A DNA stretch of 64,000 nucleotides from Nitrospirota bacterium (lineage in GTDB: Bacteria > Nitrospirota > Thermodesulfovibrionia > UBA6902), in assembly GCA_039715075.1 (NCBI GenBank), contig JBDLIC010000002.1, forward strand, positions 2,108 through 66,107, given 5' to 3'. Made by a program: the position numbers and the translations under genes. Positions 27,904-63,652 of this stretch are shown one piece after another. Position 1 is the stretch's first letter. Each line of letters starts with the position of its first letter. Under the pieces are notes generated by a model. That model was given only the letters and a program-made list of their open reading frames with translations, made no database searches and was not told the DNA's origin.

Positions 27904-28019
<116 letters not shown>

Positions 28020-28181: not shown

Positions 28182-28327
28182 AAAAATTTGTGTAACAAAT
28201 TTTAAGTTTACAGTTATCAGTGAACAGTACTTAGTATAAACCAGAGCCATTTCAAAAATCAAAACCATCAACTGCTAACTGTTACCTGTCAACTGCAAAC
28301 TCCAAATTTGGCAGAGCCAAATTTGAA

Positions 28328-28404
<77 letters not shown>

Positions 28405-32501: not shown

Positions 32502-32538
32502 CGGTTGAAACGGCTCAAGCGCTTGGAACCGTTTATTT
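32478..32538. promoter_or_regulatory. repeat motif block GTTTCAACCGTT / GTTGAAACGGCT / GCTTGGAACCGTT, copy 1
   Basis: GTTTCAACCGTTCCAGCAGAGTCATCGGTTGAAACGGCTCAAGCGCTTGGAACCGTTT at the gltB2/gltD junction. It is closely related to the block at 36689..36775. Confidence 0.55.
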
Positions 32539-34198
32539 AACAGTTATATTTAATTTTCAATCTTTCAGCCATTGCCGGGTCATCTATGCTGATACCGTCC
32601 GACATACCGATCGGAAGCTCTGTGCTTCTACCCATCGGGGCAAATATTTTCTTTAATTCAATATCCACTGATTTGAAGACTTCCACAACTCTTTGAGCAA
32701 CTACATCAGGGTCTAGTCTTCTGTATAATCTCGGGTCCTGTGTTGTGATACCTCTCGGGCACTTGCCGAGGTTGCAGACATTGCATCTGTTATATTCATC
32801 TCCGAAACATCCGGCTGCTGCCTGCATGATATATTTACCGATTGATACGCAGGATGCACCGAGCATAATGAGTGCGGCAGTATTTGTGGCAAGGTTGCCT
32901 TTCTTTCCCACACCGCCTGCTGCAATCAGCGGGAGTTCATTCTGTTTACCCTGTGCTACCAGGTCGAGATAACACTCGCGGAGGTTTGATGCAATCGGGT
33001 GGCCCATTGCATCCATGGAAACATTGTATGCTGCACCGGTGCCGCCATCGTCACCATCAATGGAAAGTCCTCCTGCATATGGATTTCTGATCAAATTATT
33101 GAGAACGGATTTAGCAGTGTGACTGCCCGAAATCTTCGGATAGATCGGGACCCTGAATCCCCATGCCATGGACATGGACTGGATCATCTTTGCAACTGCT
33201 TCCTCAATAGAATATTTTGTCTGATGAGTCGGGGGTGATGGCAGGTCAACGCCCATCGGCACGCCCCTGATCTCGGAGATCAGTTTCAGGACTTTATGCG
33301 CCATGAGGAGTCCGCCGTCACCCGGCTTTGCTCCCTGTCCGTATTTAATCTCTATTGCGCAGGGGTCCTCTATCATATGAGGCAGTGCCCTGACGATTTC
33401 ATCCCAGCCGAAATATCCTGATGCGATCTGGGGGATGAAGTATTTTATAAACCTTGAACGTAACAGGCTCTGGGGCATTCCGCCTTCACCCGATGCCATA
33501 ACTACGGGCATATTTTCTACTTCATTTAGATAAGTAACACCCATTGCAAGCCCTTCCCACATATTGGGGGAAAGCGCTCCGATGGACATGCTTCCTATCA
33601 TTATCGGGTATATTTCCCTGACCGGCGGGACAAACGTGCCGGACTTTTTATCGATATCCAGTTTACCGTTTACAACCTGTATGGGAAGTTCATCTGCGGG
33701 AAGTATCCTGCCGAGATATGTCCTTATCCTGAACTCATGCCTTCCTGCATCAAGTGCCGGGTCGGTAAGCATTGATATTCTGGAAAACTTCAGCCTGTCG
33801 AGAGTGGACGGCGTCGGATCGTTTCTCCGTCCGCCCCTTCTGTATGGATGACCGCCTTTATTTTTATGAAAAACAAATTTGTGCTGCGGGTTGAACTCCG
33901 GCTCAATCGCTTCATTCGGACATACAAGTTCGCATGTTGCGCACCCTATGCAGTAGCGGTCAATATCGTTTGACTGTTTAACAATTGTCTCAACACGCCG
34001 GACAGCTTTCGGCTCGGGTGTCGGGCCTTCGGAGTGGAGCACACGCTTTACAACAACCGACGGTTCGATTGCAAATACCGGGCATACTGCTGTGCAGCGT
34101 CCGCATCTCTTGCACCTGTCATCCCTCCAGCGCACGATGTACGGAAAGTCCTTCAGCGACAGCTGGTGATTATTGTCTAACCGTGAAGCTGGTTCCAT
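32537..34198 (-). CDS. gltB: glutamate synthase FMN-binding (GltB central) domain protein with N-terminal 2x[4Fe-4S] ferredoxin domain
   Basis: N-terminal CKRCGRCTAVCP and CIGCATCELVCP ferredoxin motifs. The FMN-domain core includes ASGEGGM, IKYGQGAKPGDGG and AAGGVG. Confidence 0.8.
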   Translation of the reverse strand: MEPASRLDNNHQLSLKDFPYIVRWRDDRCKRCGRCTAVCPVFAIEPSVVVKRVLHSEGPTPEPKAVRRVETIVKQSNDIDRYCIGCATCELVCPNEAIEPEFNPQHKFVFHKNKGGHPYRRGGRRNDPTPSTLDRLKFSRISMLTDPALDAGRHEFRIRTYLGRILPADELPIQVVNGKLDIDKKSGTFVPPVREIYPIMIGSMSIGALSPNMWEGLAMGVTYLNEVENMPVVMASGEGGMPQSLLRSRFIKYFIPQIASGYFGWDEIVRALPHMIEDPCAIEIKYGQGAKPGDGGLLMAHKVLKLISEIRGVPMGVDLPSPPTHQTKYSIEEAVAKMIQSMSMAWGFRVPIYPKISGSHTAKSVLNNLIRNPYAGGLSIDGDDGGTGAAYNVSMDAMGHPIASNLRECYLDLVAQGKQNELPLIAAGGVGKKGNLATNTAALIMLGASCVSIGKYIMQAAAGCFGDEYNRCNVCNLGKCPRGITTQDPRLYRRLDPDVVAQRVVEVFKSVDIELKKIFAPMGRSTELPIGMSDGISIDDPAMAERLKIKYNC

Positions 34199-35286
34199 AC
34201 CATCACCTCCTGTGCATCAGGTTTGATTATTACCATATCGAATTTCATCGGAAAAATATCCTCTGACCTGTCTCTTGAGGGCACTACGCTTTCGAGCCCG
34301 CACTCTTCGGACATCAAACCGTATTTCCCTTTCATACCGCCTACAGCACCGGGCCTCAACTTCTTTGCATCCTGGACCATGAAACATGTTCCGTCCGGTG
34401 TAAAACCGATTATGCAGTTAGGGCCGTCAATACAGAGAGGCCTTAACGATCTCTTTAAATATGTAACAGCATCACTGTCAGTACGGTTGTCAATGTCTTC
34501 CTGTTTCAGCGGTGTGATTACGTCCTTATAATAATGAAGGGGATACCCCAGTTCTTTGTATGTATAGTGCAGAATATGGCAGAAGACTTCACTGTCGCTG
34601 TTGTATCCCACATAACCCGGAAGGTTCCTTCCTGTAAGAAACTCCCTGATCGGAACAAACGCGGTATTTTCACCATTTGTCATCGTACAGATACCCTGAA
34701 GAAAAAACGGATGGCATGCATAAAGGTTAATCGCATAGTTTGTATTCTGCCTGCCCTGTGCAAAGATTATTTTTGCCTTCAGAGACGACTTGTCCAGCCC
34801 GAAAAAATCACCGAGTTGAAGGGGATCGCCTACTTCCTTGAGCGCCAGAATGTCAGGATAGAAGGTAAACACGATAATGGACTCGTCTTCTTTTCCCAGG
34901 TCCCTGAGACTCAGCCTTGTCCTGAGAAGGAGACCTTCCTTAACATCCATCGGCCTGTCTTTGAAATACTCGGGATAGTCATACACCCTGGCAAAATAAT
35001 TATCACGGGCCTCGATCCCCTTTACAGACCTTGTCTTGGGAGTCCATGTGTACTTGAGCTTGAACCCCGCCTTGTTCATATAATCATCAAGCACCTTTAC
35101 GCCATTATTTGAGCAGATGCCGGACAGGACAGGGAAGTCCTTCAGCTCTTCAAACTCTCCCCCGAGACCCTTAAGCATAAGTCCCATACCGGAACCATCA
35201 TGCCCCTCCTTCATTGTTTCGAGGGCAAGTATATTCTCAACAGGAGAGAAGTAGTCGCTTGATGTTATTGCAGCCAGTCTGCACAT
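34177..35286 (-). CDS. class-II (Ntn) glutamine amidotransferase domain protein, the glutamate synthase amidotransferase subunit
   Basis: Starts MCRLAAI, with the Cys nucleophile directly after the initiator Met. GATase-2 fold, 369 aa, first gene of the three-gene glutamate synthase operon. Confidence 0.7.
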   Translation of the reverse strand: MCRLAAITSSDYFSPVENILALETMKEGHDGSGMGLMLKGLGGEFEELKDFPVLSGICSNNGVKVLDDYMNKAGFKLKYTWTPKTRSVKGIEARDNYFARVYDYPEYFKDRPMDVKEGLLLRTRLSLRDLGKEDESIIVFTFYPDILALKEVGDPLQLGDFFGLDKSSLKAKIIFAQGRQNTNYAINLYACHPFFLQGICTMTNGENTAFVPIREFLTGRNLPGYVGYNSDSEVFCHILHYTYKELGYPLHYYKDVITPLKQEDIDNRTDSDAVTYLKRSLRPLCIDGPNCIIGFTPDGTCFMVQDAKKLRPGAVGGMKGKYGLMSEECGLESVVPSRDRSEDIFPMKFDMVIIKPDAQEVMVWNQLHG

Positions 35287-40444: not shown

Positions 40445-40569
40445 AAAAGAACCGCTTCAAATGTTTACTGTAGAGAGGAGATTTCTCCTCTACTCAAATA
40501 TCATTGCCTTTAAATCATTGTAAGTGGTGTCACTCATTTATTAATCTGTACTGCACCAAAGGAGGTCCA

Positions 40570-41010
40570 ATGAAAAGTGTTTTGATTGCGTATTTCAGCC
40601 GCACTGGAAAGACAGAACAGATGGCAAAGTACACAGCAGAAGGAGTTCGTTTTTGCGGGCATACAGCTGAAGTCAAGGAAATTTCTGAAATTAAAAATGA
40701 AAAGGATTTTGCAGGATTTGACGGGTTCATTTTTGGTTGTCCAACTTATCATAGAGATATGACGCAGAATATGAAAACATTCCTTTTTTTGGCACAAAAG
40801 GCTAATCTTGAGGGGAAAATCGGGGGTGCCTTTGGTTCTCATACCCACACGGGAGATGCTCCAAAGTTGATTTTTGATACTATGGAATTTGTATACAAGA
40901 TGGACATGGTTAATTTAGGACCATTTCCTATCAAAGAGGCCATAGTCGACACAATGGAAGGAATACATGCCTGTCAGGATTATGGAAAAGCTGTTGGTAA
41001 TAAATTGTAG
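40570..41010 (+). CDS. flavodoxin
   Basis: Start at MKSVLIAYFSRTGKTEQMAKY (flavodoxin FMN-phosphate loop T/SxTGxT), and FGCPTY later. The first 22 codons of the ORF-track call are likely upstream read-through. Confidence 0.75.
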   Translation: MKSVLIAYFSRTGKTEQMAKYTAEGVRFCGHTAEVKEISEIKNEKDFAGFDGFIFGCPTYHRDMTQNMKTFLFLAQKANLEGKIGGAFGSHTHTGDAPKLIFDTMEFVYKMDMVNLGPFPIKEAIVDTMEGIHACQDYGKAVGNKL

Positions 41011-41160: not shown

Positions 41161-41736
41161 CTAATAATTCTCACACATTATTTCGTAATATGACTGCGGG
41201 TGCGCACAGGCAGGGCATTCTTCCGGCGCCGCTTTTCCCTCATGGACATATCCGCAATTGCGGCACTTCCATTTAACGGCTTCATCCTTTTCAAAGACCT
41301 TCCCGTCTTTTATATTCTGGAGTAATTTTCTGTATCTTTTTTCGTGCTGTTCTTCTACTTCCGATATTTCCTTAAATACGTACGCAACCGCATCAAATCC
41401 TTCTTCCCTGGCAACAGACTCAGCATCTTTGTAAAGTTTGGTCCATTCAAGATGTTCCCCTGCAGCCGCTGCCTCAAGATTAGCCGCAGTATCGCCAATC
41501 ACCCCTGCCGGATATGTCGCCGTTATTTCAACGTCTCCGCCTTCGAGGAACTTGAAGAATTTTTTTGCATGTTCTTTTTCATTATCAGCTGTCTCGAGAA
41601 AAATAGCCGCTATCTGTTCAAACCCTGCCTTTTTCGCTACTGATGCAAAATAGGTATAACGGTTTCTCGCCTCTGACTCTCCAGCAAAAGATGCCAGTAA
41701 ATTCTTCTCGGTTCTTGTTCCCTTTATGCTCTTCAT
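41161..41736 (-). CDS. rbr: rubrerythrin (diiron domain plus C-terminal rubredoxin-like domain)
   Basis: ExxH diiron motifs (NEKEHAKKF, EEQHEKRY) and a C-terminal CRNCGY...CPACAH. Confidence 0.9.
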   Translation of the reverse strand: MKSIKGTRTEKNLLASFAGESEARNRYTYFASVAKKAGFEQIAAIFLETADNEKEHAKKFFKFLEGGDVEITATYPAGVIGDTAANLEAAAAGEHLEWTKLYKDAESVAREEGFDAVAYVFKEISEVEEQHEKRYRKLLQNIKDGKVFEKDEAVKWKCRNCGYVHEGKAAPEECPACAHPQSYYEIMCENY

Positions 41737-41979: not shown

Positions 41980-42396
41980 ATGGAGTGGACAGAGGACCTG
42001 TCAGTCGGCAATGAAACAATTGACAGTCAGCACCGTGAGCTATTTGACAGAATTAACGATCTTGTGGCAGCAATAAAACAGAAGACATGCAAGTATAAAA
42101 TAGGTGATGTTATTAAGTTCCTTGACGACTATATAGTATATCACTTCGGAGAAGAAGAAAAAATAATGCAGAAGTACAGATACCCTGATTACGCTAAGCA
42201 TAAGGCACAGCACAAAATATTCCTGGATAACTTTGAAAAACTCAAGGTTGAGCTTCCTAAACTTGAGGGCGGAAAGAAACCGGGTTCATATGACCTCTCA
42301 GTCGAGACTAACCAGGTGGTGATTGACTGGATACTGCTGCATATCGCCAGCGTCGATAAACAACTTGGAGAGTTTTTGAAGGATTTTGCAAAGTAA
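41980..42396 (+). CDS. bacteriohemerythrin
   Basis: MEWTEDLSVGNETIDSQHRELF hemerythrin signature with His/Glu/Asp ligand spacing. Confidence 0.8.
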   Translation: MEWTEDLSVGNETIDSQHRELFDRINDLVAAIKQKTCKYKIGDVIKFLDDYIVYHFGEEEKIMQKYRYPDYAKHKAQHKIFLDNFEKLKVELPKLEGGKKPGSYDLSVETNQVVIDWILLHIASVDKQLGEFLKDFAK

Positions 42397-45277: not shown

Positions 45278-45724
45278 TTAAAACGTCGAAGGATCTTCAG
45301 GCGGCAATTTATTTTCATCAAAGGGCATAACCCCGAGCTGAGTCATAACAGCCTCATAACTTTCAAGCATCTCCTTATAATCAAAACCGGACATTGAATC
45401 ATACAAAGCATTCTCAACCAGTCTGTCGAATGCCTCATAGTCAAAGCTGCCGTCAACCACTCCTGAACGCAACAGTATATTAAAAGTGGTCTTATCATCA
45501 TTCATATTATCATCCTCATCAATCCCGAGATTCTTTATACGTTCAGGGGATGCAACATACCACTGCATTGCCGAGCCCAGCGCATCATAAAGAGTTATGA
45601 TACCATATGATATTTTGCCCTGACGAAGCCTTCTTTTACCGCCGCGAATGTGGAGCTTCGCACGCATGAGAGGTCCTTCCACAGGTCCAAGCGCAGCTTC
45701 ATCCATTAAACCAAAGTGCGGCAT
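45278..45724 (-). CDS. hypothetical protein (148 aa)
   Basis: Intact ORF with no recognisable motif. Its start overlaps the stop of the upstream 139-aa gene by a few bases. Confidence 0.4.
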   Translation of the reverse strand: MPHFGLMDEAALGPVEGPLMRAKLHIRGGKRRLRQGKISYGIITLYDALGSAMQWYVASPERIKNLGIDEDDNMNDDKTTFNILLRSGVVDGSFDYEAFDRLVENALYDSMSGFDYKEMLESYEAVMTQLGVMPFDENKLPPEDPSTF

Positions 45725-45829
45725 GCTAAATGCTCAACTCCCTCCGTAATAATTTCAGTTATTATAAGTACCCATCTCTTCTCAAGCCCGGGGAATACAG
45801 GATTCTGCTGCTGCCCTTTTTTAAAAGTA

Positions 45830-46249
45830 CTACTCCTTAAAAAAGCCGAGGGGTTCCATTTCGTCTATTACCCACTGGTCTTCCACCTGTTCATCACCCC
45901 CGACATCTTTCATGGTCCTTGCACGTTCCTTAAGATAACAGAATACCAGCCTCTTCTTAACACTGTTGAGTTTCGTGTCCATATCAGTCACGTTGTCCCG
46001 CAGTGACCACCTGATACCAAGGTCTTTGATAACATCGTTTATCATCTCGTCTTTTACTTCTTTCTGCACCACCATAGAAAGAGTATTTTCCGGACCGGTT
46101 GTCAGCTTCATTGGATTATGCGGCTCTGCCAGTTCCTGACCATTTTCTTCCGCCCACTTCATAATATCAGGAACAAACTTAATGTCCTTAATAAAATACT
46201 GGCCACCAAGATTTAATAGTACTGCTTCATAATCATTAACATAGACCAT
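45830..46249 (-). CDS. hypothetical protein (139 aa)
   Basis: Intact ORF with no recognisable motif. Confidence 0.4.
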   Translation of the reverse strand: MVYVNDYEAVLLNLGGQYFIKDIKFVPDIMKWAEENGQELAEPHNPMKLTTGPENTLSMVVQKEVKDEMINDVIKDLGIRWSLRDNVTDMDTKLNSVKKRLVFCYLKERARTMKDVGGDEQVEDQWVIDEMEPLGFFKE

Positions 46250-47747: not shown

Positions 47748-48173
47748 CTATGTGTCTTTTGCCATAAAGGCCTTTATTTTTGTAAGCTCATTCATATAAT
47801 TGTCGTGGCTCTTCTCATCTTCAAGCAGATGTGACAGGAGCAGTTTCGGGAGAGGCAGGCTGCCCATTTCAAGGGCCTGTTCAGCTGTACTCACTGCATT
47901 CTTTTCCATTGCAGCATGTTTCTCTATAAATGTGTCCACAATCTTTAGATCGTCAGTAGTGAATATAAATGCTGAATTAAGGCTGAGCCTGATCGTTTCG
48001 AGAATTTTTTTATGCTTTTCAGAGTCGAGTTTTACCAGATCGATCATAGTCTTAAGCATGGGATTTTCACTTTGCCCCATTAAATCAGCTGCCGCTGTTA
48101 TTGTATTTTCCTCCAGCATGATCCAGTTTTGGATCAATTCCTCAAATTTCTTTCTGTTTTCAGGTAATGTCAT
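47748..48173 (-). CDS. ferritin-like diiron-domain protein
   Basis: Two ExxH motifs (DSEKHKKILE, LEDEKSHDNYMNE) in a 141-aa helical protein. Confidence 0.4.
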   Translation of the reverse strand: MTLPENRKKFEELIQNWIMLEENTITAAADLMGQSENPMLKTMIDLVKLDSEKHKKILETIRLSLNSAFIFTTDDLKIVDTFIEKHAAMEKNAVSTAEQALEMGSLPLPKLLLSHLLEDEKSHDNYMNELTKIKAFMAKDT

Positions 48174-48337: not shown

Positions 48338-48808
48338 ATGTATAATACAAACTTAAATCATAGAGGGACCATTTACAGAGCAGTTGTTCTGATCGCAGGG
48401 ATATTGTTTCTATCCGGGCCCGCGGTATCCGTAACCCATGCTGCAGGCCTTTCTGTGCCGGCAAAAGAAAGCGACATAACGCGCATTTCACCTAAGGACC
48501 TTAAGGGCATGATTGACAGGAAGGAAGCTGTCCTTATTGTAGATGTCCGTCCGGTCAGCGCATTTAATGCCCAGCACATTGCAGGAGCTATATCAGTACC
48601 GCTCAACGAGGTCAGGTCGCGCCTTGATGAACTGCCCAGGGATAAAACAATCGTTTTCTACTGAACATGACCTAATGAGCAAAAAAGTGCCCGTGCGGCA
48701 CTTCTCCTCTACAAACAGGGCTACACAAAGGTGTCCTCACTAAAGGGCGGGATGGCAATTTGGAAAAAGAACGGATTTTCTGTGTCACCTTACAAGAAAC
48801 ACAATTAA
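48338..48808 (+). CDS. periplasmic single-domain rhodanese with two in-frame TGA codons at the catalytic Cys position (candidate selenoprotein, or a nonsense-mutated pseudogene)
   Basis: Signal peptide, then rhodanese fold ...AVLIVDVRPVSAFNAQHIAGAISVP...DKTIVFY-TGA-T-TGA-PNEQKSARAALLLYKQGYTKVSSLKGGMAIWKKNGF. The frame and rhodanese C-terminal motifs are preserved after the TGAs. A hairpin AAGUGCC-CGUGC-GGCACUU lies 18-24 nt downstream. Confidence 0.5.
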
Positions 48809-48889
48809 TACTGACTTCACTAATTCCAACTGCTTAATAATTTCAGGCGCTGTCCTGAACGCTTTTTATGTTCCTTTGACAGGGCTTTC

Positions 48890-49015
48890 CTATTCCCCAA
48901 GCAGTTCCATCGGCTGTCCGCAGCATACCAGTTCACCGCCGCCGACCTTTGTGACCGTTACTTCATTTCCGCATACATTGCACTTATAGTTTTCTCCTGT
49001 TTTTCTTACTCCCAT
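48890..49015 (-). CDS. dsr: desulforedoxin (41 aa), below the ORF-track size cut-off
   Basis: MGVRKTGENYKCNVCGNEVTVTKVGGGELVCCGQPMELLGE has the CxxCG...CCG desulforedoxin motif. An AAGGAG RBS is upstream. Confidence 0.75.
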   Translation of the reverse strand: MGVRKTGENYKCNVCGNEVTVTKVGGGELVCCGQPMELLGE

Positions 49016-49055
49016 TTCCATCTCCTTTTCTTACAGGTTTATTCGAAATCCGGAT

Positions 49056-49553
49056 CTATCCTTCAACAATGCTGTGTTCTTCCCACATAAACCAGTTACC
49101 GGTGTCGCTCAGAAAGCTATGCGTATTTGCAAAAATATCATAATGCTGCTGTTCTTCCAGTGCAAGCCTCTCAAAAAGTTTTTTCTCTTTCTCTGAAGTC
49201 ACCTCTGATACCGCCTTTTCATAAAACTCCTTGCCCTCTTTTTCCATCTGCATAGCTACCTTAAAGGCCTCTAGTTCATCAGTAGTGGCTTCAATCTTCT
49301 GCATCATCTCATCCTTCATTGACTCAAATACTGTTTTTATATTTTTCATCGGGCTTACATCGTTAATTGTAATGTCGACTCCCTTGAATATCTGTGAAAG
49401 CATTTCCAGGTGCCTCTTTTCGTCTTCCGTTATGGTCATAAACATTTTTTTACCAACCGGGCTGCTGGTTTTTTCAGCTGCTTCACCATAGAAACTTATT
49501 GCGTCCTTCTCCATCTTTATTGCTATCTCAATTGCGTTCATCTTCTCCTCCAT
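49056..49553 (-). CDS. rubrerythrin-family ferritin-like diiron protein (no rubredoxin domain)
   Basis: Paired ExxH motifs (EDEKRHLE, EEQQHYD) in a 165-aa four-helix protein. Confidence 0.6.
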   Translation of the reverse strand: MEEKMNAIEIAIKMEKDAISFYGEAAEKTSSPVGKKMFMTITEDEKRHLEMLSQIFKGVDITINDVSPMKNIKTVFESMKDEMMQKIEATTDELEAFKVAMQMEKEGKEFYEKAVSEVTSEKEKKLFERLALEEQQHYDIFANTHSFLSDTGNWFMWEEHSIVEG

Positions 49554-49633: not shown

Positions 49634-49876
49634 CTAAGTCTTCTTCAGGTCATCGAGGTCGTTTTTCAGATTCTCAAGAATCCTTCTCAGCTCAGCTTCA
49701 TGCCCCATTTCCTGCTGGGCAAGGAACTCAAAGAGTTCTCGCGATTCTTCTGATGTTGCTTTCTTTGCTGCGCTCAAATAAAAATGTCGGGCTGAAATTT
49801 CCCTCGGTATCGCAAGCAGCACCACCTGGATCATCTCTTCAACGCCCTTAATCCTGTTTTTTACGTCTCCACTCAT
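49634..49876 (-). CDS. small ferritin/rubrerythrin-like protein (80 aa)
   Basis: YLSAAKKATSEESRELFEFLAQQEMGHEAEL resembles one half of a rubrerythrin diiron domain. Confidence 0.4.
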   Translation of the reverse strand: MSGDVKNRIKGVEEMIQVVLLAIPREISARHFYLSAAKKATSEESRELFEFLAQQEMGHEAELRRILENLKNDLDDLKKT

Positions 49877-49923: not shown

Positions 49924-50613
49924 CTAAGAGGGCCATGTAATCTTCCCCCCGTTGTATGCAATAAAAAGCGTCACCGGGACATTTACAAAAATCAGAGCAT
50001 TATAGATATATGACATTGTATCCGACCTGAGCGCAATATCCGGGACAATAAACCTCAACGGCACAAGAAAAAGAACCGAAATGATCAGTATGATAGAGCC
50101 GGCCAGTTTGTTCTTGAATATGGTTGTAAAGGTCATATCATAATTTATCCACCAGCTGAAGATTCCTGCTGCCACAGCAGGAAAGACACCTAGAGCTCCA
50201 AAAGTTATCGCATAAAAAGCCGTAAACTCAAAGGACCTGTTCTCTGAAAGAAGAAAAAGCAACTGCATGAACGCACCGAATACGAATAATCCTATGGGGA
50301 AGTGAATAAGTATCGGATGCGGATGGAACTTCTGGTACAGGTTGCGGAGAACCGCCAACCTCTCAATGGATGCATCCACCTGCTCTGCCTCAATAGTCCC
50401 AACCGGCTCGACCCTGTCAAAAACCTCTTTATCATGCGGCGCCATGGAGATAAATTCGGAAAGGTCTTCACCCGCCTTATGGCGTCCCATATGGACCCCA
50501 TCCTTCCATAGATCGCTTTTTGACACATCATAGATCTTGCCGTTGTACACGACATAAGCGGGGCGACCGTCCTTCCCGTCAAAAGATTTCAGTTCACTCT
50601 TTTTCATAAACAA
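49924..50613 (-). CDS. cytochrome b5-like haem/steroid-binding domain fused to a polytopic membrane domain
   Basis: N-terminal ELKSFDGKDGRPAYVVYNGKIYDVS...HKAGEDLS (cyt-b5-like), followed by about 5 TM helices. Confidence 0.55.
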   Translation of the reverse strand: MFMKKSELKSFDGKDGRPAYVVYNGKIYDVSKSDLWKDGVHMGRHKAGEDLSEFISMAPHDKEVFDRVEPVGTIEAEQVDASIERLAVLRNLYQKFHPHPILIHFPIGLFVFGAFMQLLFLLSENRSFEFTAFYAITFGALGVFPAVAAGIFSWWINYDMTFTTIFKNKLAGSIILIISVLFLVPLRFIVPDIALRSDTMSYIYNALIFVNVPVTLFIAYNGGKITWPS

Positions 50614-50626: not shown

Positions 50627-51154
50627 CTATTCAACAAGGTCAGCTTCAAGATTCACAGAAACCTCCACATCCTTCCCGACCATAAAACCGCCCTTCTCCA
50701 TCGGTTCGTTCCACTTCATGCCGAAGTCCTCACGGTTAAGAACGGTCCTTCCCGTAATACCCAGGGTTGTCTCACCAAATGGGCTTTTGACAGGGCCTAA
50801 AACATCTGCTTCCAGAGTAATGGTCTTCTTAATTCCATGTACAGTTAAATCACCTCTGACTTTGCAGGTATTGAAACCGGTCCGTTCCAACGCTGTTCCC
50901 TTAAAAGTAATATCAGGCTGCTTTTCAATGTCAAAGAACTCCTCACTTTTCAGGTGATCATCCCTTTTCCCGATACCCGTAATAATACTGTCCGGATCAA
51001 CTTTAAATTCCAGGTCCAGACTCGTAATATCTTCAGGATCAAGGTTAATGGTGCCGGAGACTCTATTCATCTGCCCGTGCACAAAAGCAACCGTCATATG
51101 ACGGATCGAAAATGAACCTACTGAATGATCAGGATCAATGTTCCATTTTGCCAT
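50627..51154 (-). CDS. YceI-family protein
   Basis: MAKWNIDPDHSVGSFSIRHMTVAFVHGQMNRVSGTI is a typical YceI N-terminal signature. The protein is 175 aa. Confidence 0.75.
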   Translation of the reverse strand: MAKWNIDPDHSVGSFSIRHMTVAFVHGQMNRVSGTINLDPEDITSLDLEFKVDPDSIITGIGKRDDHLKSEEFFDIEKQPDITFKGTALERTGFNTCKVRGDLTVHGIKKTITLEADVLGPVKSPFGETTLGITGRTVLNREDFGMKWNEPMEKGGFMVGKDVEVSVNLEADLVE

Positions 51155-53674: not shown

Positions 53675-54472
53675 ATGAAATTTAAAATAAAGACAGTTTT
53701 TATTTTCCTGGTGCTTGCAACTGTTTTTTCTGCCGGGCAGAGAGCCATCGCTGCCCAGCCTCCGGACCGGGCGGCTGTCGGCATAGATGAAAAACTGGGG
53801 CAGCATGTTCCGCTTGATATTATGTTCAGCGACGAAAAGGGAAATGCCCATGCGTTAAGGGACCTCATTGACAGACCGACCATAGTTCTACCGGTATATT
53901 ACCGCTGCACAAACATCTGCACCATTCTACTGGGAAGCCTGGCGGACGTTCTGGACAAAATGCAGTCGCAGCCCGGCAGGGATTATAAAGCCCTTTCAAT
54001 AAGTTTTAATGAAGATGACACACCGGAAACCGCAATGGAGAAAAAGCGGAACTATATGGCGTCTCTCAAAAACCCATTTCCTGAAGAGTCATGGAAATTC
54101 CTGACAGGTGATATCCAGAACATCACACGGTTCACGCAGGCTGTGGGATTCAACTTTAAACGGCAGGGAGAGCATTTCCTGCACCCCGCAGCACTCATCA
54201 TAATTTCACCTGAAGGCAAAATTGTCAGATACCTGTACGGAAACACGTTTCTGCCGTTTGAATTAAGGATGGCGCTTATTGAGGCATCAGAGGGGAGAGT
54301 AGGCGCCACAATAGGCAAGGTCCTGAAGTTCTGCTTCAGCTATGATCCAAAAGGACGCAGATACGTAGTAAATATATTGAGAATTTCCGCAACAGTTATT
54401 CTCTCCCTTGCCGCCATTTTTGTAACATACCTTATGATAACAGGCAGGGCAGAAAAGAGAAAAACAGGGTAA
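53675..54472 (+). CDS. SCO1/SenC-family copper chaperone (thioredoxin fold, CxxxC) with C-terminal TM helix
   Basis: Signal peptide, CTNIC (CxxxC) motif, thioredoxin-like fold, 265 aa. It sits directly upstream of coxA. Confidence 0.7.
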   Translation: MKFKIKTVFIFLVLATVFSAGQRAIAAQPPDRAAVGIDEKLGQHVPLDIMFSDEKGNAHALRDLIDRPTIVLPVYYRCTNICTILLGSLADVLDKMQSQPGRDYKALSISFNEDDTPETAMEKKRNYMASLKNPFPEESWKFLTGDIQNITRFTQAVGFNFKRQGEHFLHPAALIIISPEGKIVRYLYGNTFLPFELRMALIEASEGRVGATIGKVLKFCFSYDPKGRRYVVNILRISATVILSLAAIFVTYLMITGRAEKRKTG

Positions 54473-54477
54473 GGAAT

Positions 54478-56067
54478 ATGAAATCAGGTTTTTATGAAGC
54501 AAAAGGGAAACACAGAGGAATCCTCTCCTGGATTCTATCTACAGACCATAAACGGATAGGGCTTCTGTATCTCTTCACCATGCTGACCTTCACTACGGTC
54601 GGCATCTCGCTCGGATCTCTGCTGAGGCTTGAACTGATCGCTCCGGGAGAAACGATCATGGCAGCGGGGACATACAATGCCGTCTTCACCCTTCATGGGG
54701 TAATAATGATCTTTCTCTTTGTCATCCCGGGACTCCCGGCTGTGTTCGGCAACTTCTGCATGCCCCTCCAGATAGGAGCAAGGGAGGTGGCATTTCCGAG
54801 AATCAACCTGTTTTCATGGTGGCTGTTTGTTGCCGGCGGAATCATAGCTGTCATGTCACTCTTTACGGGGGGAGGGCCTATTGATACGGGCTGGACCTTT
54901 TACGCACCATACAGCATAAAGACGGGAACAAATGTCACGCTTGCAGTATTCGGGGTCTTCCTCATTGGCTTTTCTTCCATCCTGACTGGATTGAATTTCA
55001 TAACCACAATACACAGGCTCAGGGCACCCGGCATGAACTGGTTCCGGCTTCCCCTGTTCAGCTGGTCCATTTATTCTACGGCCTGGATACAGGTCCTTGC
55101 TACACCGATAATAGGGATTACACTCCTGCTTATCATGGTCGAACGGTACTTCGGCATTGGTGTTTTTGACCCTGACAAGGGAGGAGATCCGATATTGTTC
55201 CAGCATCTGTTCTGGATTTACTCACACCCCGCCGTGTATGTCATGGTACTCCCTGCCATGGGCGTTGTATCAGATATCATCCCGGTATTTGCGAGAAGGA
55301 CTATTTTCGGATATAAGATGATCGCCTTTTCAAGCCTTGCGATAGCCCTGCTGGGTTCACTGGTCTGGGGCCATCATATGTACACGAGCGGAATGAGCGA
55401 CACCGCAAAGGTGATCTTCTCTTTGCTGACATTCCTGGTTGCCATACCAAGCGCAATCAAGGTTTTCAACTGGATATCTACACTGTATAAAGGATCAATA
55501 ACAGTTGGCACTCCTCTGCTGTATGTTCTTTCGTTCATTTTCCTTTTTGCTATAGGAGGGTTGACCGGACTGGTGAATTCCGCACTTGCAACTGACATTC
55601 ATATACATGACACACAGTTTGTGGTGGCCCATTTCCACTATACGATGTTCGGCGGCACTGCCTTCGGGTTTGTCGGGGCGCTCCACTTCTGGTTTCCGAA
55701 GATGTTCGGAAAAATCTATAGTGAAAAAATAGCAAAAACAGCATGGGCATTTATCTTTGTCGGATTTAACACGACTTTTTTCCCGTTGTTTATGCTCGGT
55801 ATGAACGGTATGCCGAGGAGGTATTACGACTACCTTCCCCAGTTCCAGACAGGTAATATGATTGCTACAATCGGTTCATGGATACTCGTTTCTGGAGTTG
55901 TATTAATGGTTGTAAATTTATACAGGGCAACCCAAAAAGGTGAAGAGGCTGGAAGCAATCCATGGGGTGGAGCCTCTCTGGAATGGCATGTACCTTCGCC
56001 GCCGCCACATGATAATTTTGATGAGATACCAGTGGTGGAGACCAAACCATATGAATTTAAATATTGA
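54478..56067 (+). CDS. coxA: haem-copper oxidase subunit I (cytochrome c oxidase)
   Basis: WIYSHPAVYVMVLP, GHHMYTSGM and WGGASLEWHVPSPPP motifs across 12 TM helices. Confidence 0.9.
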   Translation: MKSGFYEAKGKHRGILSWILSTDHKRIGLLYLFTMLTFTTVGISLGSLLRLELIAPGETIMAAGTYNAVFTLHGVIMIFLFVIPGLPAVFGNFCMPLQIGAREVAFPRINLFSWWLFVAGGIIAVMSLFTGGGPIDTGWTFYAPYSIKTGTNVTLAVFGVFLIGFSSILTGLNFITTIHRLRAPGMNWFRLPLFSWSIYSTAWIQVLATPIIGITLLLIMVERYFGIGVFDPDKGGDPILFQHLFWIYSHPAVYVMVLPAMGVVSDIIPVFARRTIFGYKMIAFSSLAIALLGSLVWGHHMYTSGMSDTAKVIFSLLTFLVAIPSAIKVFNWISTLYKGSITVGTPLLYVLSFIFLFAIGGLTGLVNSALATDIHIHDTQFVVAHFHYTMFGGTAFGFVGALHFWFPKMFGKIYSEKIAKTAWAFIFVGFNTTFFPLFMLGMNGMPRRYYDYLPQFQTGNMIATIGSWILVSGVVLMVVNLYRATQKGEEAGSNPWGGASLEWHVPSPPPHDNFDEIPVVETKPYEFKY

Positions 56068-56076
56068 AAAAGCAGA

Positions 56077-56691
56077 ATGAATAATACTTCCACTATTGAA
56101 AGTCATAAGGACTATATCGGCGCAAAGATGGGAATGTGGCTCTTCCTTTTTACGGAACTTCTTCTTTTCGGCGGCCTCTTCCTCATATACGCGGTCTACC
56201 GCTATTCATATCACGGCGGCTTTCAGGCAGGGTCCGGGGAACTGAGCACGATAGCCGGAACAGTCAACACTGTTATCCTTATCACAAGCAGCCTTACAAT
56301 GGCCGTTTCGATCTCTGCGATACAAAGGGGAAACAGAAAACTATGCCTGGCCATGCTGCTCGCAACGATTCTTTTCGCGGCCGCCTTCATGGTAAATAAA
56401 TATTTTGAATGGGGGGCAAAGATTCATCACGGTATATATCCAGGCTCTCCTGAGCTGCTTTCAAATGATCATGGTACGGTCCTTTTTTACGGTCTCTATT
56501 ATGTCATGACAGGACTGCACGGACTGCATGTCCTTGTCGGGATGGTTTTATTGTCAATAATGTTTTTTCTGGTTTACAGGGGAAGGATCGACAGTACGGA
56601 TTTTGTGAAGCTCGAAAATTCAGGGCTGTACTGGCATTTTGTTGACCTCATCTGGATCTTTCTCTTCCCCCTGTTTTACCTGATCACATAA
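56077..56691 (+). CDS. coxC: cytochrome c oxidase subunit III
   Basis: A 204-aa membrane protein with a subunit-III-like 5-helix core. Confidence 0.75.
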   Translation: MNNTSTIESHKDYIGAKMGMWLFLFTELLLFGGLFLIYAVYRYSYHGGFQAGSGELSTIAGTVNTVILITSSLTMAVSISAIQRGNRKLCLAMLLATILFAAAFMVNKYFEWGAKIHHGIYPGSPELLSNDHGTVLFYGLYYVMTGLHGLHVLVGMVLLSIMFFLVYRGRIDSTDFVKLENSGLYWHFVDLIWIFLFPLFYLIT

Positions 56692-56702
56692 AGGAGAGTT
56701 TT

Positions 56703-56993
56703 GTGAAGCAAAAAAAAGAGGACATTCATATTACGGGTTATAAAAATTATCTGCTCGTATGGCTGGGGCTAATGATTTTCACGGTACTTACCGTTGCGGT
56801 TGCGCGAATTGATCTGGGGAGTATAAACTTTCTGGCCGCAATGCTTATCGCGTCTTTCAAGGCCCTTCTGGTGATAACCTTTTTTATGCATCTTTTATAT
56901 GAACAGCGTCTTTTTAAAATAATGGTATTTTTTTCGGTCGTTACTCTTGCAATATTTATCGGGTTAACTTTTTTTGACGTCCCTTTCAGGTAA
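56703..56993 (+). CDS. coxD: cytochrome c oxidase subunit IV (bacterial caa3-type small subunit)
   Basis: A 96-aa three-helix membrane protein placed between coxC and coxB. Confidence 0.55.
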   Translation: MKQKKEDIHITGYKNYLLVWLGLMIFTVLTVAVARIDLGSINFLAAMLIASFKALLVITFFMHLLYEQRLFKIMVFFSVVTLAIFIGLTFFDVPFR

Positions 56994-57002
56994 GGCCATA
57001 TT

Positions 57003-57914
57003 ATGATTTCAGGAGCATCGAACATAGCAGAGCATGTAGACAATGCATTTATATTCATAATAGGCATATCGATACTACTTCTGGTTTCCATAACAGCTGT
57101 TATGATCTTCTTTGTCTTCAAATATCACAGTTCAAAAAATACAAAGCCGGAAAACATTGAGGGCAATAATATGCTCGAGGCCCTCTGGATAGCCATACCC
57201 ACTGTCCTGGTCCTGTTCATGTTCTATTACGGCTGGACAGGATACAAGGTAATGCGTGATGTCCCTGAGGGAGCGATGGAGATACATGTAAAGGCCCGCA
57301 TGTGGTCCTGGCTTTTCCTTTATGAAAACGGGAAGAAAAATAGTGTGTTGTATGTCCCTGTCGGGAAACCTGTAAAACTTCTACTTTCCTCACAGGATGT
57401 GATCCACAGTTTATTTATTCCGGCCTTCAGAGTAAAAGAAGACGTGGTGCCGGGGATGGAAACTTTTGTATGGTTTGAGCCTACCAAGGTTGGGGAATAT
57501 GATCTGTTCTGTGCTGAATATTGCGGGCTGAAGCATGCGGATATGATCACTAAGGTTGTAGTTATGAAGGAAAATGAGTTCAAGAGGTGGTATGAAGAGG
57601 AGGAAGGGGAAGCGGTCCCCGGAATTTCAGCGCGTGAACTGCTGGATGAAAATGGATGTCTTGACTGCCATACCGAAGACGGGACAATGCACATGGCTCC
57701 CACTTTCAAAGGCCTTTTCGGCACCATGAGAACTGTTGTAACAGAGGGGGAGGAAAGAAGTATTGTCGCAGATGAGCCTTATATAAGGAAATCAATTTTA
57801 GAGCCGGAATCCGATATAGTAAAGGGATTTGAACCTCTCATGCCTTCATACTTAGATGAGTTAAGCGGAAAAGATATTGAAATAATTATTGAGTATCTTA
57901 AAGAGTTAAAATAG
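57003..57914 (+). CDS. coxB: cytochrome c oxidase subunit II with C-terminal cytochrome c domain (caa3-type)
   Basis: CuA site HSLFIP...FCAEYCGLKHADM, plus a C-terminal CLDCH haem c motif. Confidence 0.85.
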   Translation: MISGASNIAEHVDNAFIFIIGISILLLVSITAVMIFFVFKYHSSKNTKPENIEGNNMLEALWIAIPTVLVLFMFYYGWTGYKVMRDVPEGAMEIHVKARMWSWLFLYENGKKNSVLYVPVGKPVKLLLSSQDVIHSLFIPAFRVKEDVVPGMETFVWFEPTKVGEYDLFCAEYCGLKHADMITKVVVMKENEFKRWYEEEEGEAVPGISARELLDENGCLDCHTEDGTMHMAPTFKGLFGTMRTVVTEGEERSIVADEPYIRKSILEPESDIVKGFEPLMPSYLDELSGKDIEIIIEYLKELK

Positions 57915-62533: not shown

Positions 62534-63652
62534 CTAGTTCTTGCCCGACGGTAACAGCCCCGGTCCAAAATCACCCTCGCCTCCACCTGTTGGAAGCATC
62601 GGCACTTCCTTAAAATCCTGTGGTATCTCACCGGTAAGTGAATGAAGAAAAGCCACGATGTCATCAACCTCTTGCATGCTTAATTCCTTATTGAGCATGT
62701 TTTTAGACATGAACTTGACCATATCGCGAAGACTATCTATAAGTCCCGCGTGAGTGTAAGGGGGAGTTCTCTCTACATTAAGAAGTTGAGGTACCTTGAA
62801 AAAGTATTTATCCTCCTCTTTTTTTGTCTTTTTTGCCCGTCCAAGATCATCTTCAGCTCCGGGCAGTATAACCTTGTGAAGATGAATCCCCATTTTATGA
62901 GACTCAGGGTGCTCCCTGGCATATACTTTCACCTTTGGATCATGCAGAGGGCCTGAGAAGGCAGGGCCGTGGTGACAACCTATACAGCCCTTTTCTACAA
63001 AGAGCGCCATCCCCTTTTTCTGCTGTTCAGTAATGGCATTGTCATCTCCTCTGAGCCATCTGGCAAGAGGGTAATTCGGGGTAACCAAAGTCCTCATATA
63101 GGCTGCTGTTGCCTTGCCTATGTTTTCCTCTGTCAGGAGTTCTCCAAAAACTCTTTTAGAGAGCTCCCTGTATTCAGGAAGCCTGTTCAACCTCTCGGCA
63201 ACTTCTTTCGGCCAGCTCCTTGTGGCCACATGTGATCGTATAGCTGCAAGCGCCTGATGCTCTAAGGTAGGCGACTCCCCTGCCCAGAATTGCACAGATA
63301 AAAAGGCCGCGTTCAGGACTGTACCTGAATTTCTCAGGTGAATCTCTCCGTTTATGCCGACCGACTTTCTCATTGGCTCTGCCCCGTAGTACGAGGGATA
63401 ATGGCAGAACACACAGCTCGTTGCTCCTGTCTTTGACACTCTTCTGTCCCAGAAGAGCATTTTTCCAAGTCTGATCTTCTCCGGTGTCATCTGATTATCC
63501 GCGGGTATCGGGGGTATGGCAGGAAGTGGAGTCAGAATAGACCGGTATTTTTCATATCTGGCCTGCTCAGCGTTTCCATTGTTTGCTGACACAAAAACAG
63601 CAGAAATCATCAGCAGGAAGATCCAAAGGGCCAAATGCCTTTTTGTGTTCAT
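62534..63652 (-). CDS. ccpA: di-haem cytochrome c peroxidase (CcpA/MauG family)
   Basis: Signal peptide and two CxxCH motifs (CVFCH, CIGCHHG) with the PTLRNSGTV-like CCP fold. Confidence 0.8.
   Translation of the reverse strand: MNTKRHLALWIFLLMISAVFVSANNGNAEQARYEKYRSILTPLPAIPPIPADNQMTPEKIRLGKMLFWDRRVSKTGATSCVFCHYPSYYGAEPMRKSVGINGEIHLRNSGTVLNAAFLSVQFWAGESPTLEHQALAAIRSHVATRSWPKEVAERLNRLPEYRELSKRVFGELLTEENIGKATAAYMRTLVTPNYPLARWLRGDDNAITEQQKKGMALFVEKGCIGCHHGPAFSGPLHDPKVKVYAREHPESHKMGIHLHKVILPGAEDDLGRAKKTKKEEDKYFFKVPQLLNVERTPPYTHAGLIDSLRDMVKFMSKNMLNKELSMQEVDDIVAFLHSLTGEIPQDFKEVPMLPTGGGEGDFGPGLLPSGKN

What the first reader, a model, noticed from the sequence alone, without database searches (positions are those of the whole stretch)
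48338..48808. Rhodanese with two in-frame TGA codons exactly at the catalytic cysteine (candidate selenocysteine rhodanese)
The periplasmic rhodanese ORF reads ...DKTIVFY-TGA-ACA-TGA-PNEQKSARAALLLYKQGYTKVSSLKGGMAIWKKNGF, so the frame and the rhodanese C-terminal motifs are preserved after the stops. By alignment with the CYHGNSS loop of GlpE-type rhodaneses, the TGAs fall at the active-site Cys position. A 7-bp stem with a 5-nt loop containing GU lies 18-24 nt downstream of the TGAs, which is the range used by bacterial SECIS elements. Elsewhere in the window TGA behaves as a stop, so this is not a recoded genome. Two Sec residues one codon apart (U-T-U) would be highly unusual. The alternative is a freshly inactivated gene.
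Basis: partly seen in the sequence, partly recalled or inferred. Interest (0 to 1): 0.75.

Follow-up and report, generated by a model that had tools for sequence, protein, structure and literature searches.

The report
Rhodanese gene with two selenocysteines
This is a working gene for an exported rhodanese-type enzyme whose active site holds two selenocysteines written as TGA "stop" codons; both the family and this double form were already described, so it is a mis-annotated member of a known selenoprotein family rather than something new.

Summary
Window 48338-48808 (+) is a 156-codon rhodanese gene reading ...IVFY-TGA-ACA-TGA-PNEQKSARAA..., with a 6-7 bp hairpin (loop CGUGC) at 48685-48703.

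It is not a pseudogene. An independent assembly reproduces it exactly. Two syntenic orthologues keep both TGAs and an intact 46-codon downstream frame. I confirmed 12 distinct U-x-U genes and 14 C-x-U genes at the DNA level, from Nitrospirota, Chloroflexi, Acidobacteriota and Desulfobacterota MAGs and from unassigned metagenome contigs. All carry the hairpin in the same register, with compensatory changes at synonymous sites.

The second TGA is present in every confirmed gene. The first position alternates between Cys and Sec.

The best NCBIfam match is NF041203, "rhodanese-related (seleno)protein", at 93 bits against a cut-off of 115. The C-x-U family and its U-x-U form were published in 2005-2007.

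GenBank annotates the gene as a truncated 108-aa protein. No selA, selB, selD or tRNA-Sec lies in the window, so the Sec machinery of this genome could not be checked.

Verdict: a genuine two-Sec selenoprotein gene and a new member of a known kind. What remains open is its function, which Sec is the nucleophile, and how one SECIS serves two UGAs 6 nt apart.

The parts
48338..48808 (+). Complete selenoprotein gene: 156 codons plus TAA, an exported single-domain rhodanese with the motif Y-U-T-U-P-N-E
   Evidence: The orthologues L001 and L002 have the same architecture. GenBank calls only codons 1-108 (MEN8261971.1).
48338..48442 (+). Predicted signal peptide (residues 1-35, MYNTNLNHRGTIYRAVVLIAGILFLSGPAVSVTHA, likely cleaved after T-H-A)
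   Evidence: Read from the sequence. Many relatives have a hydrophobic N-terminus followed by a Cys in a lipobox-like context, e.g. LSGC, LTGC, LAAC. This is inference; no predictor was run.
48662..48664 (+). First in-frame UGA (codon 109). This position is Cys or Sec across the family.
   Evidence: TGA here in 12 distinct genes checked at the DNA level, and TGC or TGT in 14.
48668..48670 (+). Second in-frame UGA (codon 111). This position is Sec in every family member checked.
   Evidence: columns 7-9 (TGA) are invariant in 22 of 22 aligned genes.
48685..48703 (+). SECIS-like hairpin: stem 48685/6-48691 with 48697-48702/3, loop CGUGC at 48692-48696. It is embedded in the codons for K-S-A-R-A-A-L.
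   Evidence: In 22 genes 96.2% of cells are paired. Pair 27-39 is C-G in 16 and U-A in 6 with no mismatch. Pair 30-36 is C-G in 21 and U-A in 1. None of 500 shuffles reach the observed covariation score.
48806..48808 (+). True stop codon (TAA)
   Evidence: The orthologues stop at the same codon.
48842..48869 (+). Terminator-like hairpin plus T-run after the true stop
   Evidence: The sequence is conserved in L001 and L002. It is a consensus match only.

Best explanation
A functional selenoprotein gene. The mRNA encodes an exported, single-domain rhodanese-like protein whose active-site segment is Y-Sec-Thr-Sec-Pro-Asn-Glu.

Both UGA codons (48662 and 48668) are read as selenocysteine by SelB carrying Sec-tRNA(Sec). 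SelB is recruited by one hairpin in the coding sequence (48685-48703, loop CGUGC). The hairpin lies far enough downstream to stay folded outside the ribosome while either UGA is in the A site.

The protein belongs to the known rhodanese-related selenoprotein family with a C-x-U motif. In this form the Cys two residues upstream of the invariant Sec has itself become Sec.

Shown here:
- the two UGAs are conserved;
- the downstream frame is conserved;
- the hairpin is conserved and covaries;
- Cys and Sec interchange at position 1.

Inferred:
- both UGAs are served by the same hairpin;
- the protein is exported;
- chemically, one selenol attacks a sulfane-sulfur or other oxidised substrate, and the neighbouring Cys or Sec resolves the adduct as a selenenylsulfide or diselenide, which a periplasmic reductant then re-reduces.
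For: 1. Real sequence. An independent assembly is identical.
2. Orthologues L001 and L002 (83% and 67% protein identity, same gene neighbourhood) keep TGA-ACA-TGA. There are no indels or stops in the 46 codons after it. Substitution patterns match those upstream: about 90% nt identity, with synonymous changes roughly equal to or exceeding non-synonymous ones.
3. The two protein searches returned 100 proteins of 200 aa or fewer. Of these, 39 end at ...FY, 56 end at ...YC-x, and one is a full-length homologue that reads through the site with Trp at the Sec position (P0067). Of the other four, three also end at or near the motif and one is an ordinary Cys rhodanese.
4. DNA checks give 12 distinct U-x-U and 14 C-x-U genes, all with a continuing conserved frame. 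They come from Nitrospirota, Chloroflexi, Pyrinomonadaceae and Desulfonema MAGs and from metagenome contigs that carry no taxon name.
5. The hairpin is in register in all of them. In the 22 aligned genes Ser is always AGY, never UCN. Pairs covary at synonymous third positions (AGU...GCA versus AGC...GCG; GCC...GCG versus GCU...GCA).
6. The loop has G-U at positions 2-3, as in the E. coli fdhF SECIS (G23, U24; PMC8659212).
7. The best NCBIfam hit is NF041203, 'rhodanese-related (seleno)protein' (E=9.8e-27). The Desulfonema C-A-U relative passes its cut-off (161 bits).
8. The U-x-U form of this family was published (PMC1976440).
9. TGA is otherwise a stop in this window.
10. A terminator-like hairpin follows the TAA, not the first TGA.
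11. Nitrospirae are on record as Sec users: selC embedded in selB (PMC13188914).
Against: - No selA, selB, selD or tRNA-Sec lies in the 64 kb window.
- No Rfam SECIS model matches. The single-sequence fold is not significant.
- The protein scores below the NF041203 cut-off (93.1 versus 115 bits).
- The hairpin spacing fits the second UGA. G-U falls at +26/27 from its U, against +23/24 in E. coli fdhF. For the first UGA the spacing is 6 nt longer, and no experiment shows that one bacterial SECIS can serve both.
- At the 30-40% recoding per UGA measured in E. coli (PMC4513850 abstract), two UGAs would give a low yield of full-length protein.
- No member of the family has been studied biochemically, so the chemistry is inference.
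Confidence: 0.86

Rival explanations
1. Only the second UGA is efficiently decoded as Sec. The first UGA acts mainly as a stop or a selenium-dependent brake, so most ribosomes release a 108-residue inactive fragment and full-length protein appears only when selenium is plentiful.
For: The hairpin sits at the same distance from the second UGA in C-x-U and U-x-U genes, so it looks tuned to that codon. The first UGA is 6 nt further away. Recoding is only 30-40% efficient even in E. coli fdhF (PMC4513850).
Against: 39 called fragments end at the first position and 12 distinct U-x-U genes were confirmed at the DNA level. In a rough NJ tree the U-x-U genes are scattered among C-x-U ones, so the state looks stable. 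A position that is Cys in relatives is the classic signature of Sec. A mere brake would not need to sit exactly on the conserved Cys codon.
Confidence: 0.06
2. The UGAs are recoded through the SECIS, but to cysteine or another residue. This would use a tRNA(Sec)-like tRNA charged with Cys, as described from my own knowledge for some anaerobes that lack SelA. The product would then be a C-x-C rhodanese.
For: The Sec synthesis genes could not be checked. Cys is the alternative residue at position 1 in relatives.
Against: No close C-x-C homologue was found, although both positions are one mutation away from a Cys codon. The Trp variant P0067 is the only read-through form found. If Cys were adequate at position 3, TGC or TGT would be expected somewhere among roughly 100 relatives. 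Nitrospirae are reported Sec users.
Confidence: 0.04
3. A recently inactivated pseudogene, or a sequencing or assembly error.
For: Two stops lie within three codons. GenBank annotates a 108-aa product.
Against: An independent assembly has the identical sequence. The same two TGAs occur in orthologues at 67-83% protein identity and in other phyla, with the downstream frame intact. The hairpin shows covariation.
Confidence: 0.02
4. The genome uses an altered genetic code in which TGA is a sense codon.
For: None specific.
Against: 8 of 41 long ORFs in the window end at TGA, including phosphomannomutase and cytochrome oxidase subunit I, both matched by Pfam close to their C-terminal ends. No other gene is interrupted by TGA. 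The TGAs are site-specific across several phyla.
Confidence: 0.01

Closest known systems
Rhodanese-related (seleno)protein, NCBIfam NF041203 'rhodanese_LYCAU'. [quoted passage not shown]
   Same: A single rhodanese domain of about 100 residues with an N-terminal export signal. Sec sits two residues after a conserved Cys that follows the Y of the beta-strand (..Y-C-x-U-P-x-E..S-A-R-A-A). The SECIS hairpin lies in the S-A-R-A-A codons. NF041203 is the top NCBIfam hit for the window protein and for all eight relatives tested.
   Different: The window protein scores 93.1 bits, under the 115-bit equivalog cut-off. Only the Desulfonema relative passes. The window gene therefore belongs to a sister clade that the model does not name. 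It also has Sec instead of Cys at the first position.
U-x-U form of the rhodanese-related sulfurtransferase selenoprotein, from the Olavius algarvensis deltaproteobacterial symbionts (Zhang and Gladyshev 2007, PMC1976440)
   Same: [quoted passage not shown]
   Different: That report concerned a few contigs from one symbiont metagenome. Here the form occurs in a Nitrospirota MAG and a Chloroflexi MAG and in many metagenome contigs, interleaved with C-x-U forms in a rough NJ tree. I could not compare sequences directly because the paper's figure is not held.
TsoB, rhodanese/DsbD fusion-like selenoprotein (NCBIfam NF045694, motif UxxxxU, 2 Sec)
   Same: A rhodanese domain with two Sec residues. 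One U-N-U relative (L092) sits next to a DsbD_2-family membrane protein.
   Different: The match is weak (37.5 bits against a cut-off of 805). The Sec spacing differs, there is no DsbD fusion, and there is no such neighbour in the window.
Cys-type single-domain rhodaneses: GlpE (1GMX), periplasmic PspE (2JTQ), Sud polysulfide-sulfur transferase (1QXN), BH2092 (3O3W)
   Same: The same fold family by sequence: profile E-values from 1e-17 (3O3W) and about 2e-11 (PspE, GlpE) down to 1e-5 (Sud). PspE and Sud are also exported, from my own knowledge. The active-site loop follows the same beta-strand.
   Different: They use a single catalytic Cys. The loop here is two residues longer than the six-residue C-X5-(S/T/R) loop of GlpE and PspE, and has the same length as BH2092's YCWGPACNGAT. 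This is why the register of the two Sec residues is ambiguous.
E. coli fdhF SECIS
   Same: A hairpin inside the coding sequence just downstream of UGA, with G-U in a small apical loop (PMC8659212).
   Different: There is no bulged U. The stem has 6-7 bp. G-U lies 3 nt further from the second UGA and 9 nt further from the first than in fdhF. Two UGAs precede one hairpin. No Rfam SECIS model matches.

Membership tests
Rhodanese homology domain (Pfam PF00581) | Whole-protein score above Pfam's gathering threshold (22.2 bits) | tested here: met
   73.2 bits, E=2.6e-20, residues 51-144 against profile positions 1-101 of 102, with Cys substituted for the two Sec residues.
Rhodanese homology domain (Pfam PF00581) | A nucleophile (Cys or Sec) at the start of the active-site loop, between the central beta-strand and the following helix | tested here: met
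   PDB alignments place one of the two positions on the catalytic Cys. The gapless alignment to 6MXV places the second. The gapless alignment to BH2092 and the gapped alignments to 3TP9 and 6PFZ place the first. Which one is correct is unresolved.
NCBIfam NF041203 rhodanese-related (seleno)protein (C-x-U) | Score at or above the curated equivalog cut-off (115 bits) | tested here: not met
   93.1 bits, though it is the top hit. The relative L006 passes at 161.4 bits. Seven other C-x-U and U-x-U relatives score 70-93 bits.
NCBIfam NF041203 rhodanese-related (seleno)protein (C-x-U) | The Y-C-x-U active-site motif with Sec at the third position | tested here: met
   Y-U-T-U in the window. The third position is TGA in all 22 aligned genes. 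The first is Cys or Sec.
Bacterial selenoprotein gene | An in-frame UGA conserved in homologues or aligned with Cys, with the coding frame conserved downstream | tested here: met
   The first position alternates between TGA and TGY. The downstream 45-50 codons are conserved across phyla.
Bacterial selenoprotein gene | A SECIS hairpin just downstream of the UGA with a G in a small apical loop | tested here: met
   The hairpin is at 48685-48703 with loop CGUGC. It is in register in 22 genes, 96% of cells are paired, and 2 pairs show compensatory changes. Thermodynamics alone are not significant.
Bacterial selenoprotein gene | A match to a curated SECIS covariance model (Rfam) | tested here: inconclusive
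   No SECIS family matched up to E=10 on 48600-48800. From my own knowledge, Rfam's bacterial SECIS models are specific to certain genes and lineages, so a miss says little.
Bacterial selenoprotein gene | selA, selB, selC (tRNA-Sec) and selD present in the same genome | not testable with these tools
   None lies in the 64 kb window: ARAGORN and Pfam on 52 ORFs. Other contigs of the MAG could not be reached. The only indirect support is that Nitrospirae are reported Sec users.
Bacterial selenoprotein gene | Selenium found in the protein (75Se labelling or mass spectrometry) | not testable with these tools
   This is experimental. No paper found reports biochemical work on a member of this family; PMC9312934 lists it among the predicted selenoproteins.
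U-x-U form of the rhodanese-related selenoprotein (PMC1976440) | A second Sec two residues upstream of the family's Sec | tested here: met
   TGA-ACA-TGA in the window. The same arrangement is seen in 11 other distinct genes.

The most novel reading that the evidence does not exclude
One coding-region SECIS hairpin routinely drives two successive SelB-dependent Sec insertions at UGA codons only 6 nt apart. The result is a vicinal Sec-x-Sec (diselenide-capable) centre in an exported rhodanese. The state is widespread across phyla rather than a curiosity of one symbiont. It flips repeatedly with Cys-x-Sec, which suggests tuning of the redox potential to the habitat or to selenium supply. This would be natural evidence that bacterial SECIS-to-UGA spacing is more tolerant than the E. 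coli fdhF model implies.
Probability: 0.55. Interest if true: 0.4.

Novelty: new member of a known kind. Interest (0 to 1): 0.3.

Why it matters
In practice, the gene is mis-annotated in GenBank as a 108-residue rhodanese fragment lacking its active site (MEN8261971.1). Every close relative recovered from the public protein collections (95 of 100) was called as a fragment cut at one of the two TGAs. The curated NCBIfam model misses this clade. Selenoproteome counts for Nitrospirota, Chloroflexi and Acidobacteriota are therefore underestimates.

Scientifically, the family gives a compact natural system of about 120 mature residues with one hairpin. It could be used to ask how one bacterial SECIS serves two nearby UGAs, and what a Sec-x-Sec pair does that a Cys-x-Sec pair does not. 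No member has been characterised, so the function of an apparently common exported selenoenzyme is unknown. None of this changes what is known in kind.

Tried and rejected
- Rfam at gathering thresholds over the whole window, and at E up to 10 on 48600-48800: no SECIS family matched. Treated as uninformative.
- Single-sequence folding significance: z=-0.94. The hairpin cannot be supported this way, so I used comparative pair counts instead.
- Scan for other TGA-split genes in the window as indirect proof of Sec use: only the rhodanese is convincing.
- Search for Sec machinery in the window: ARAGORN found only tRNA-Ala and tRNA-Ile. Pfam on 52 ORFs found no SelA, SelB or SelD domains.
- Protein search with the C-terminal half to find full-length C-x-C forms: no candidates.
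- Structure prediction on the Trp-variant homologue P0067 without an alignment: mean pLDDT 64. That is too weak to decide which Sec is at the canonical position, so I ran no fold search.
- PDB sequence and profile alignments to fix the register: they disagree.
- Looking for a conserved DsbD_2 / HMA / DUF8180 neighbourhood, seen in L092, in the other loci and the window: absent. Gene context gives no shared functional clue.
- Pseudogene, sequencing error and altered genetic code: considered and rejected. See the rival explanations.

Full report
**1. What is in the sequence**

Window 48338-48808 on the + strand starts at an ATG and reads 108 sense codons ending ...LDELPRDKTIVFY. It continues TGA (48662-48664), ACA, TGA (48668-48670), then 46 sense codons (PNEQKSARAALLLYKQGYTKVSSLKGGMAIWKKNGFSVSPYKKHN) and TAA at 48806-48808. 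The mechanical ORF list stops at the first TGA, giving 108 aa.

With Cys in place of the two stops, the product matches Pfam Rhodanese across both TGAs (PF00581, 73.2 bits, E=2.6e-20, residues 51-144). The N-terminus has a basic stretch, then AVVLIAGILFLSGPAVSV, then T-H-A. I read this as a signal peptide, which is inference.

A hairpin AAGUGCC / CGUGC / GGCACUU lies at 48685-48703. Its stem starts 14-15 nt after the second TGA and 20-21 nt after the first. By energy alone the region is unremarkable (z=-0.94).

A terminator-like hairpin with a T-run follows the TAA at 48842-48869. The gene is monocistronic, lying between two genes on the opposite strand.

**2. Not an artefact, not an altered code**

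A separate Logan assembly of run SRR27843388 carries the identical 471-nt gene: 0 differences, and 3 differences over 7022 nt. In the window, 8 of 41 long non-overlapping ORFs end in TGA. Two of these, phosphomannomutase and cytochrome oxidase subunit I, are matched by Pfam close to their C-terminal ends. A scan for ORFs split by in-frame TGA finds no other convincing case.

**3. Comparative evidence**

*Protein searches.* A search with the Cys-substituted protein returned 39 proteins. Of these, 38 are fragments that end exactly at this site. P0001-P0007 and P0023 end ...FY, and 30 others (35-66% identity) end ...(F/Y)-C-T.

An exhaustive HMMER search of 1.84 billion representatives with the 108-aa N-terminal part added more. 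Among the 100 proteins of 200 aa or fewer from both searches:
- 39 end ...FY;
- 56 end ...YC-x;
- one is a full-length homologue that reads through the site with Trp (TGG) at the Sec position (P0067);
- of the remaining four, three also end at or near the motif and one (P0039) is an ordinary Cys rhodanese.

*DNA checks.* I confirmed the DNA wherever I could fetch it.
- The syntenic orthologues L001 and L002 share the neighbourhood GSDH-like dehydrogenase / 141-aa ORF / rhodanese / desulforedoxin / rubrerythrin-like. They read ...IVFY*T*PNE(K/R)KSARAAL... and stop at the same codon.
- Their 49 codons from the first TGA to the stop have no indel. Nucleotide identity to the window is about 90%. 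Synonymous versus non-synonymous codon differences are 8/5, 5/6 and 7/7 for the three pairwise comparisons, much like the 60 codons upstream.
- Further U-x-U genes: L004 (a Chloroflexi MAG), L012, L013, L014, L015/16, L091, L092/93 (U-N-U), L094 and L095/96.
- C-x-U genes: L003 and L005 (Pyrinomonadaceae, two tandem paralogues each), L006 (Desulfonema), L011, L017, L019, L022, L024, L057, L075, L083 and L086.

This gives 12 distinct U-x-U and 14 distinct C-x-U genes. Every one has 45-50 conserved codons after the TGA, with the shared motif Y-[C/U]-x-U-[P/Q]-x-E-x-x-S-A-[R/G]-A-A.

*Cys and Sec at position 1.* In a rough neighbour-joining tree, U-x-U and C-x-U genes are interleaved. For example, L017 (C-T-U) nests among L012, L014 and L015 (U-T-U). 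Position 1 has therefore probably switched between Cys and Sec more than once, while position 3 is always Sec. No close C-x-C form was found.

**4. The hairpin is selected at the RNA level**

In an ungapped alignment of 22 genes starting at the first codon of the motif, columns 25-30 pair with columns 36-41 in 96.2% of cells.
- Pair 27-39 is C-G in 16 genes and U-A in 6, with no mismatch.
- Pair 30-36 is C-G in 21 and U-A in 1.
- None of 500 shuffles reach the observed covariation score or percentage paired. Sliding the 3' arm by 1-3 columns drops pairing to 20-53%.

The covarying bases are synonymous third positions: Ser AGU with Ala GCA versus AGC with GCG, and Ala GCC with GCG versus GCU with GCA. 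Ser is always AGY, never UCN. Protein conservation of S-A-R-A-A therefore cannot explain the pattern.

The loop (mostly CGUGC) has G-U at positions 2-3. This resembles the G23/U24 of the E. coli fdhF SECIS, whose 17-nt upper stem-loop lies 11 nt from the UGA (PMC8659212). Counting from the U of the second UGA, G-U falls at +26/27. From the first UGA it falls at +32/33. The hairpin sits in the same place in C-x-U and U-x-U genes, and no second hairpin is apparent. The simplest reading is that one SECIS serves both codons. This is inferred, not shown.

**5. Family assignment and prior knowledge**

The best NCBIfam model is NF041203, 'rhodanese_LYCAU, rhodanese-related (seleno)protein' (93.1 bits, E=9.8e-27). 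That is below the 115-bit equivalog cut-off. The Desulfonema relative L006 passes at 161 bits. Seven other relatives of both forms score 70-93 bits. The window gene therefore belongs to a broader clade around NF041203 that the curated model does not capture. This probably explains why GenBank shows a truncated 108-aa 'rhodanese-like domain-containing protein' (MEN8261971.1).

The literature already covers the kind:
- Rhodanese-related sulfurtransferase selenoproteins were predicted in 2005 (PMC1088965).
- Recent catalogues list a C-x-U form with NF041203 (PMC9312934; PMC13188914).

Two-Sec bacterial proteins with other spacings are also catalogued.

**6. Which Sec is the nucleophile**

Sequence alignments disagree.
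- The gapless alignment to 6MXV (YLYCGSGFRS) puts the second position on the catalytic Cys. So does a helix-anchored hand alignment to GlpE, using the GlpE sequence from my own memory.
- Alignments to 3TP9 and 6PFZ open a two-residue gap and put the first position there.
- BH2092 (3O3W, ITYCWGPACNGAT) has the same loop length and aligns its Cys gaplessly with the first position.

A single-sequence AlphaFold model of the Trp variant P0067 is weak (pLDDT 64). It places the strand end just before the Cys and the helix start six residues after the Sec position. I leave the register open. Both positions are conserved, and both probably belong to the active centre.

**7. Likely function (inference)**

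The protein is an exported rhodanese with a selenol nucleophile and a Cys or Sec two residues away. This suggests a catalytic cycle through a selenenylsulfide or diselenide. By analogy with the periplasmic PspE and Sud (my own knowledge), the substrate could be sulfane sulfur or polysulfide, or the enzyme could act as a thiol-type reductase.

The window neighbourhood is rich in oxygen-defence and oxygen-respiration genes: flavodoxin, rubrerythrin, hemerythrin, desulforedoxin, two rubrerythrin-like genes, YceI, SCO1 with cytochrome oxidase, and a di-haem peroxidase. This hints at a redox-stress role.

Gene context is not conserved across the family. L092 has HMA and DsbD_2 neighbours. L095 has unrelated ones. 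None of L092's neighbours recur elsewhere.

**8. What could not be done**

The window has no tRNA-Sec and no SelA, SelB or SelD domains among 52 ORFs scanned. Nitrospirae are reported to carry selC embedded in selB (PMC13188914), which makes Sec use plausible.

**9. Verdict**

The pseudogene, sequencing-error and altered-code alternatives are rejected.

The gene is a new, mis-annotated member of a known selenoprotein family in its already reported U-x-U form. The modestly new points are:
- the U-x-U form is about as common as C-x-U and occurs in several phyla;
- position 1 appears to switch repeatedly between Cys and Sec;
- a single covarying hairpin precedes... rather, follows both UGAs.

Interest is about 0.3.

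Noticed in passing
window 27904-28404 (- strand): tRNA-Ile(GAT), tRNA-Ala(TGC) and a 5S rRNA lie in a row with only about 86 nt between tRNA-Ala and the 5S. There is no 16S or 23S gene or fragment nearby. The cluster sits between an ATP synthase a-subunit gene (27042-27728) and a radical SAM gene (28701-29453). It could be a genuinely unlinked, 23S-less remnant operon or a MAG assembly collapse.
   Followed up: partly
window 40504-63652: A dense oxygen-related and oxidative-stress gene neighbourhood in a Nitrospirota MAG: flavodoxin (40504-41010), rubrerythrin (41161-41736), hemerythrin (41980-42396), desulforedoxin (48890-49021), two rubrerythrin-like genes (49056-49553 and 49634-49876), cytochrome b5/DUF2231 (49924-50613), YceI (50627-51154), SCO1 plus cytochrome oxidase subunits I, III and II (53675-57914), and a di-haem cytochrome c peroxidase (62534-63652).
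   Followed up: partly
window 17105-22637 (- strand): A 1137-aa ORF (17105-20518) and a 208-aa ORF (20612-21238) have no Pfam match. They lie next to an MmeI-like N6 DNA methyltransferase (21150-22637). This may be a restriction or defence module.
   Followed up: no
window 45278-46249 and 47748-48173 (- strand): Three ORFs of 139-148 aa have no Pfam match, yet same-sized ORFs sit in the same relative positions in the related contigs: all three in L001, two in L002. They flank the GSDH-like gene and the rhodanese. Function unknown.
   Followed up: no
L003 2199-2807 and 2884-3375; L005 2289-2768 and 2827-3315: Two Pyrinomonadaceae MAGs carry two tandem paralogous C-S-U rhodanese selenoprotein genes, each with its own TGA and hairpin.
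   Followed up: partly
protein P0067 (127 aa, from the representative search): This is the only full-length relative recovered. It reads LYC-T-W-PSENTSAGAAL, with TGG (Trp) at the otherwise invariant Sec position. It could be a one-base Sec-to-Trp change or a sequencing error.
   Followed up: no
L092 4687-6887 (GCA_016214845.1) and L093: A U-N-U rhodanese gene is flanked by an HMA (heavy-metal-associated) domain gene, a His-rich DsbD_2-family membrane protein and a DUF8180 gene. This is reminiscent of the rhodanese/DsbD fusion selenoprotein TsoB. The neighbourhood was not seen in the window or in the other loci.
   Followed up: partly
L097 6422-6751 (same organism as the window; the equivalent position in the window should be about 52.5 kb, - strand): A 109-aa DsrC-family gene lies just beyond the radical SAM/SPASM gene downstream of the rhodanese neighbourhood. 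I did not examine it in the window.
   Followed up: no
window 30129-35286 (- strand): A split, archaeal-type glutamate synthase-like cluster: GXGXG plus pyridine-nucleotide-disulfide oxidoreductase plus 4Fe-4S (30129-32501), and a Glu_synthase domain with ferredoxin (32537-34198). It is preceded by a 369-aa ORF with no Pfam match (34177-35286).
   Followed up: no
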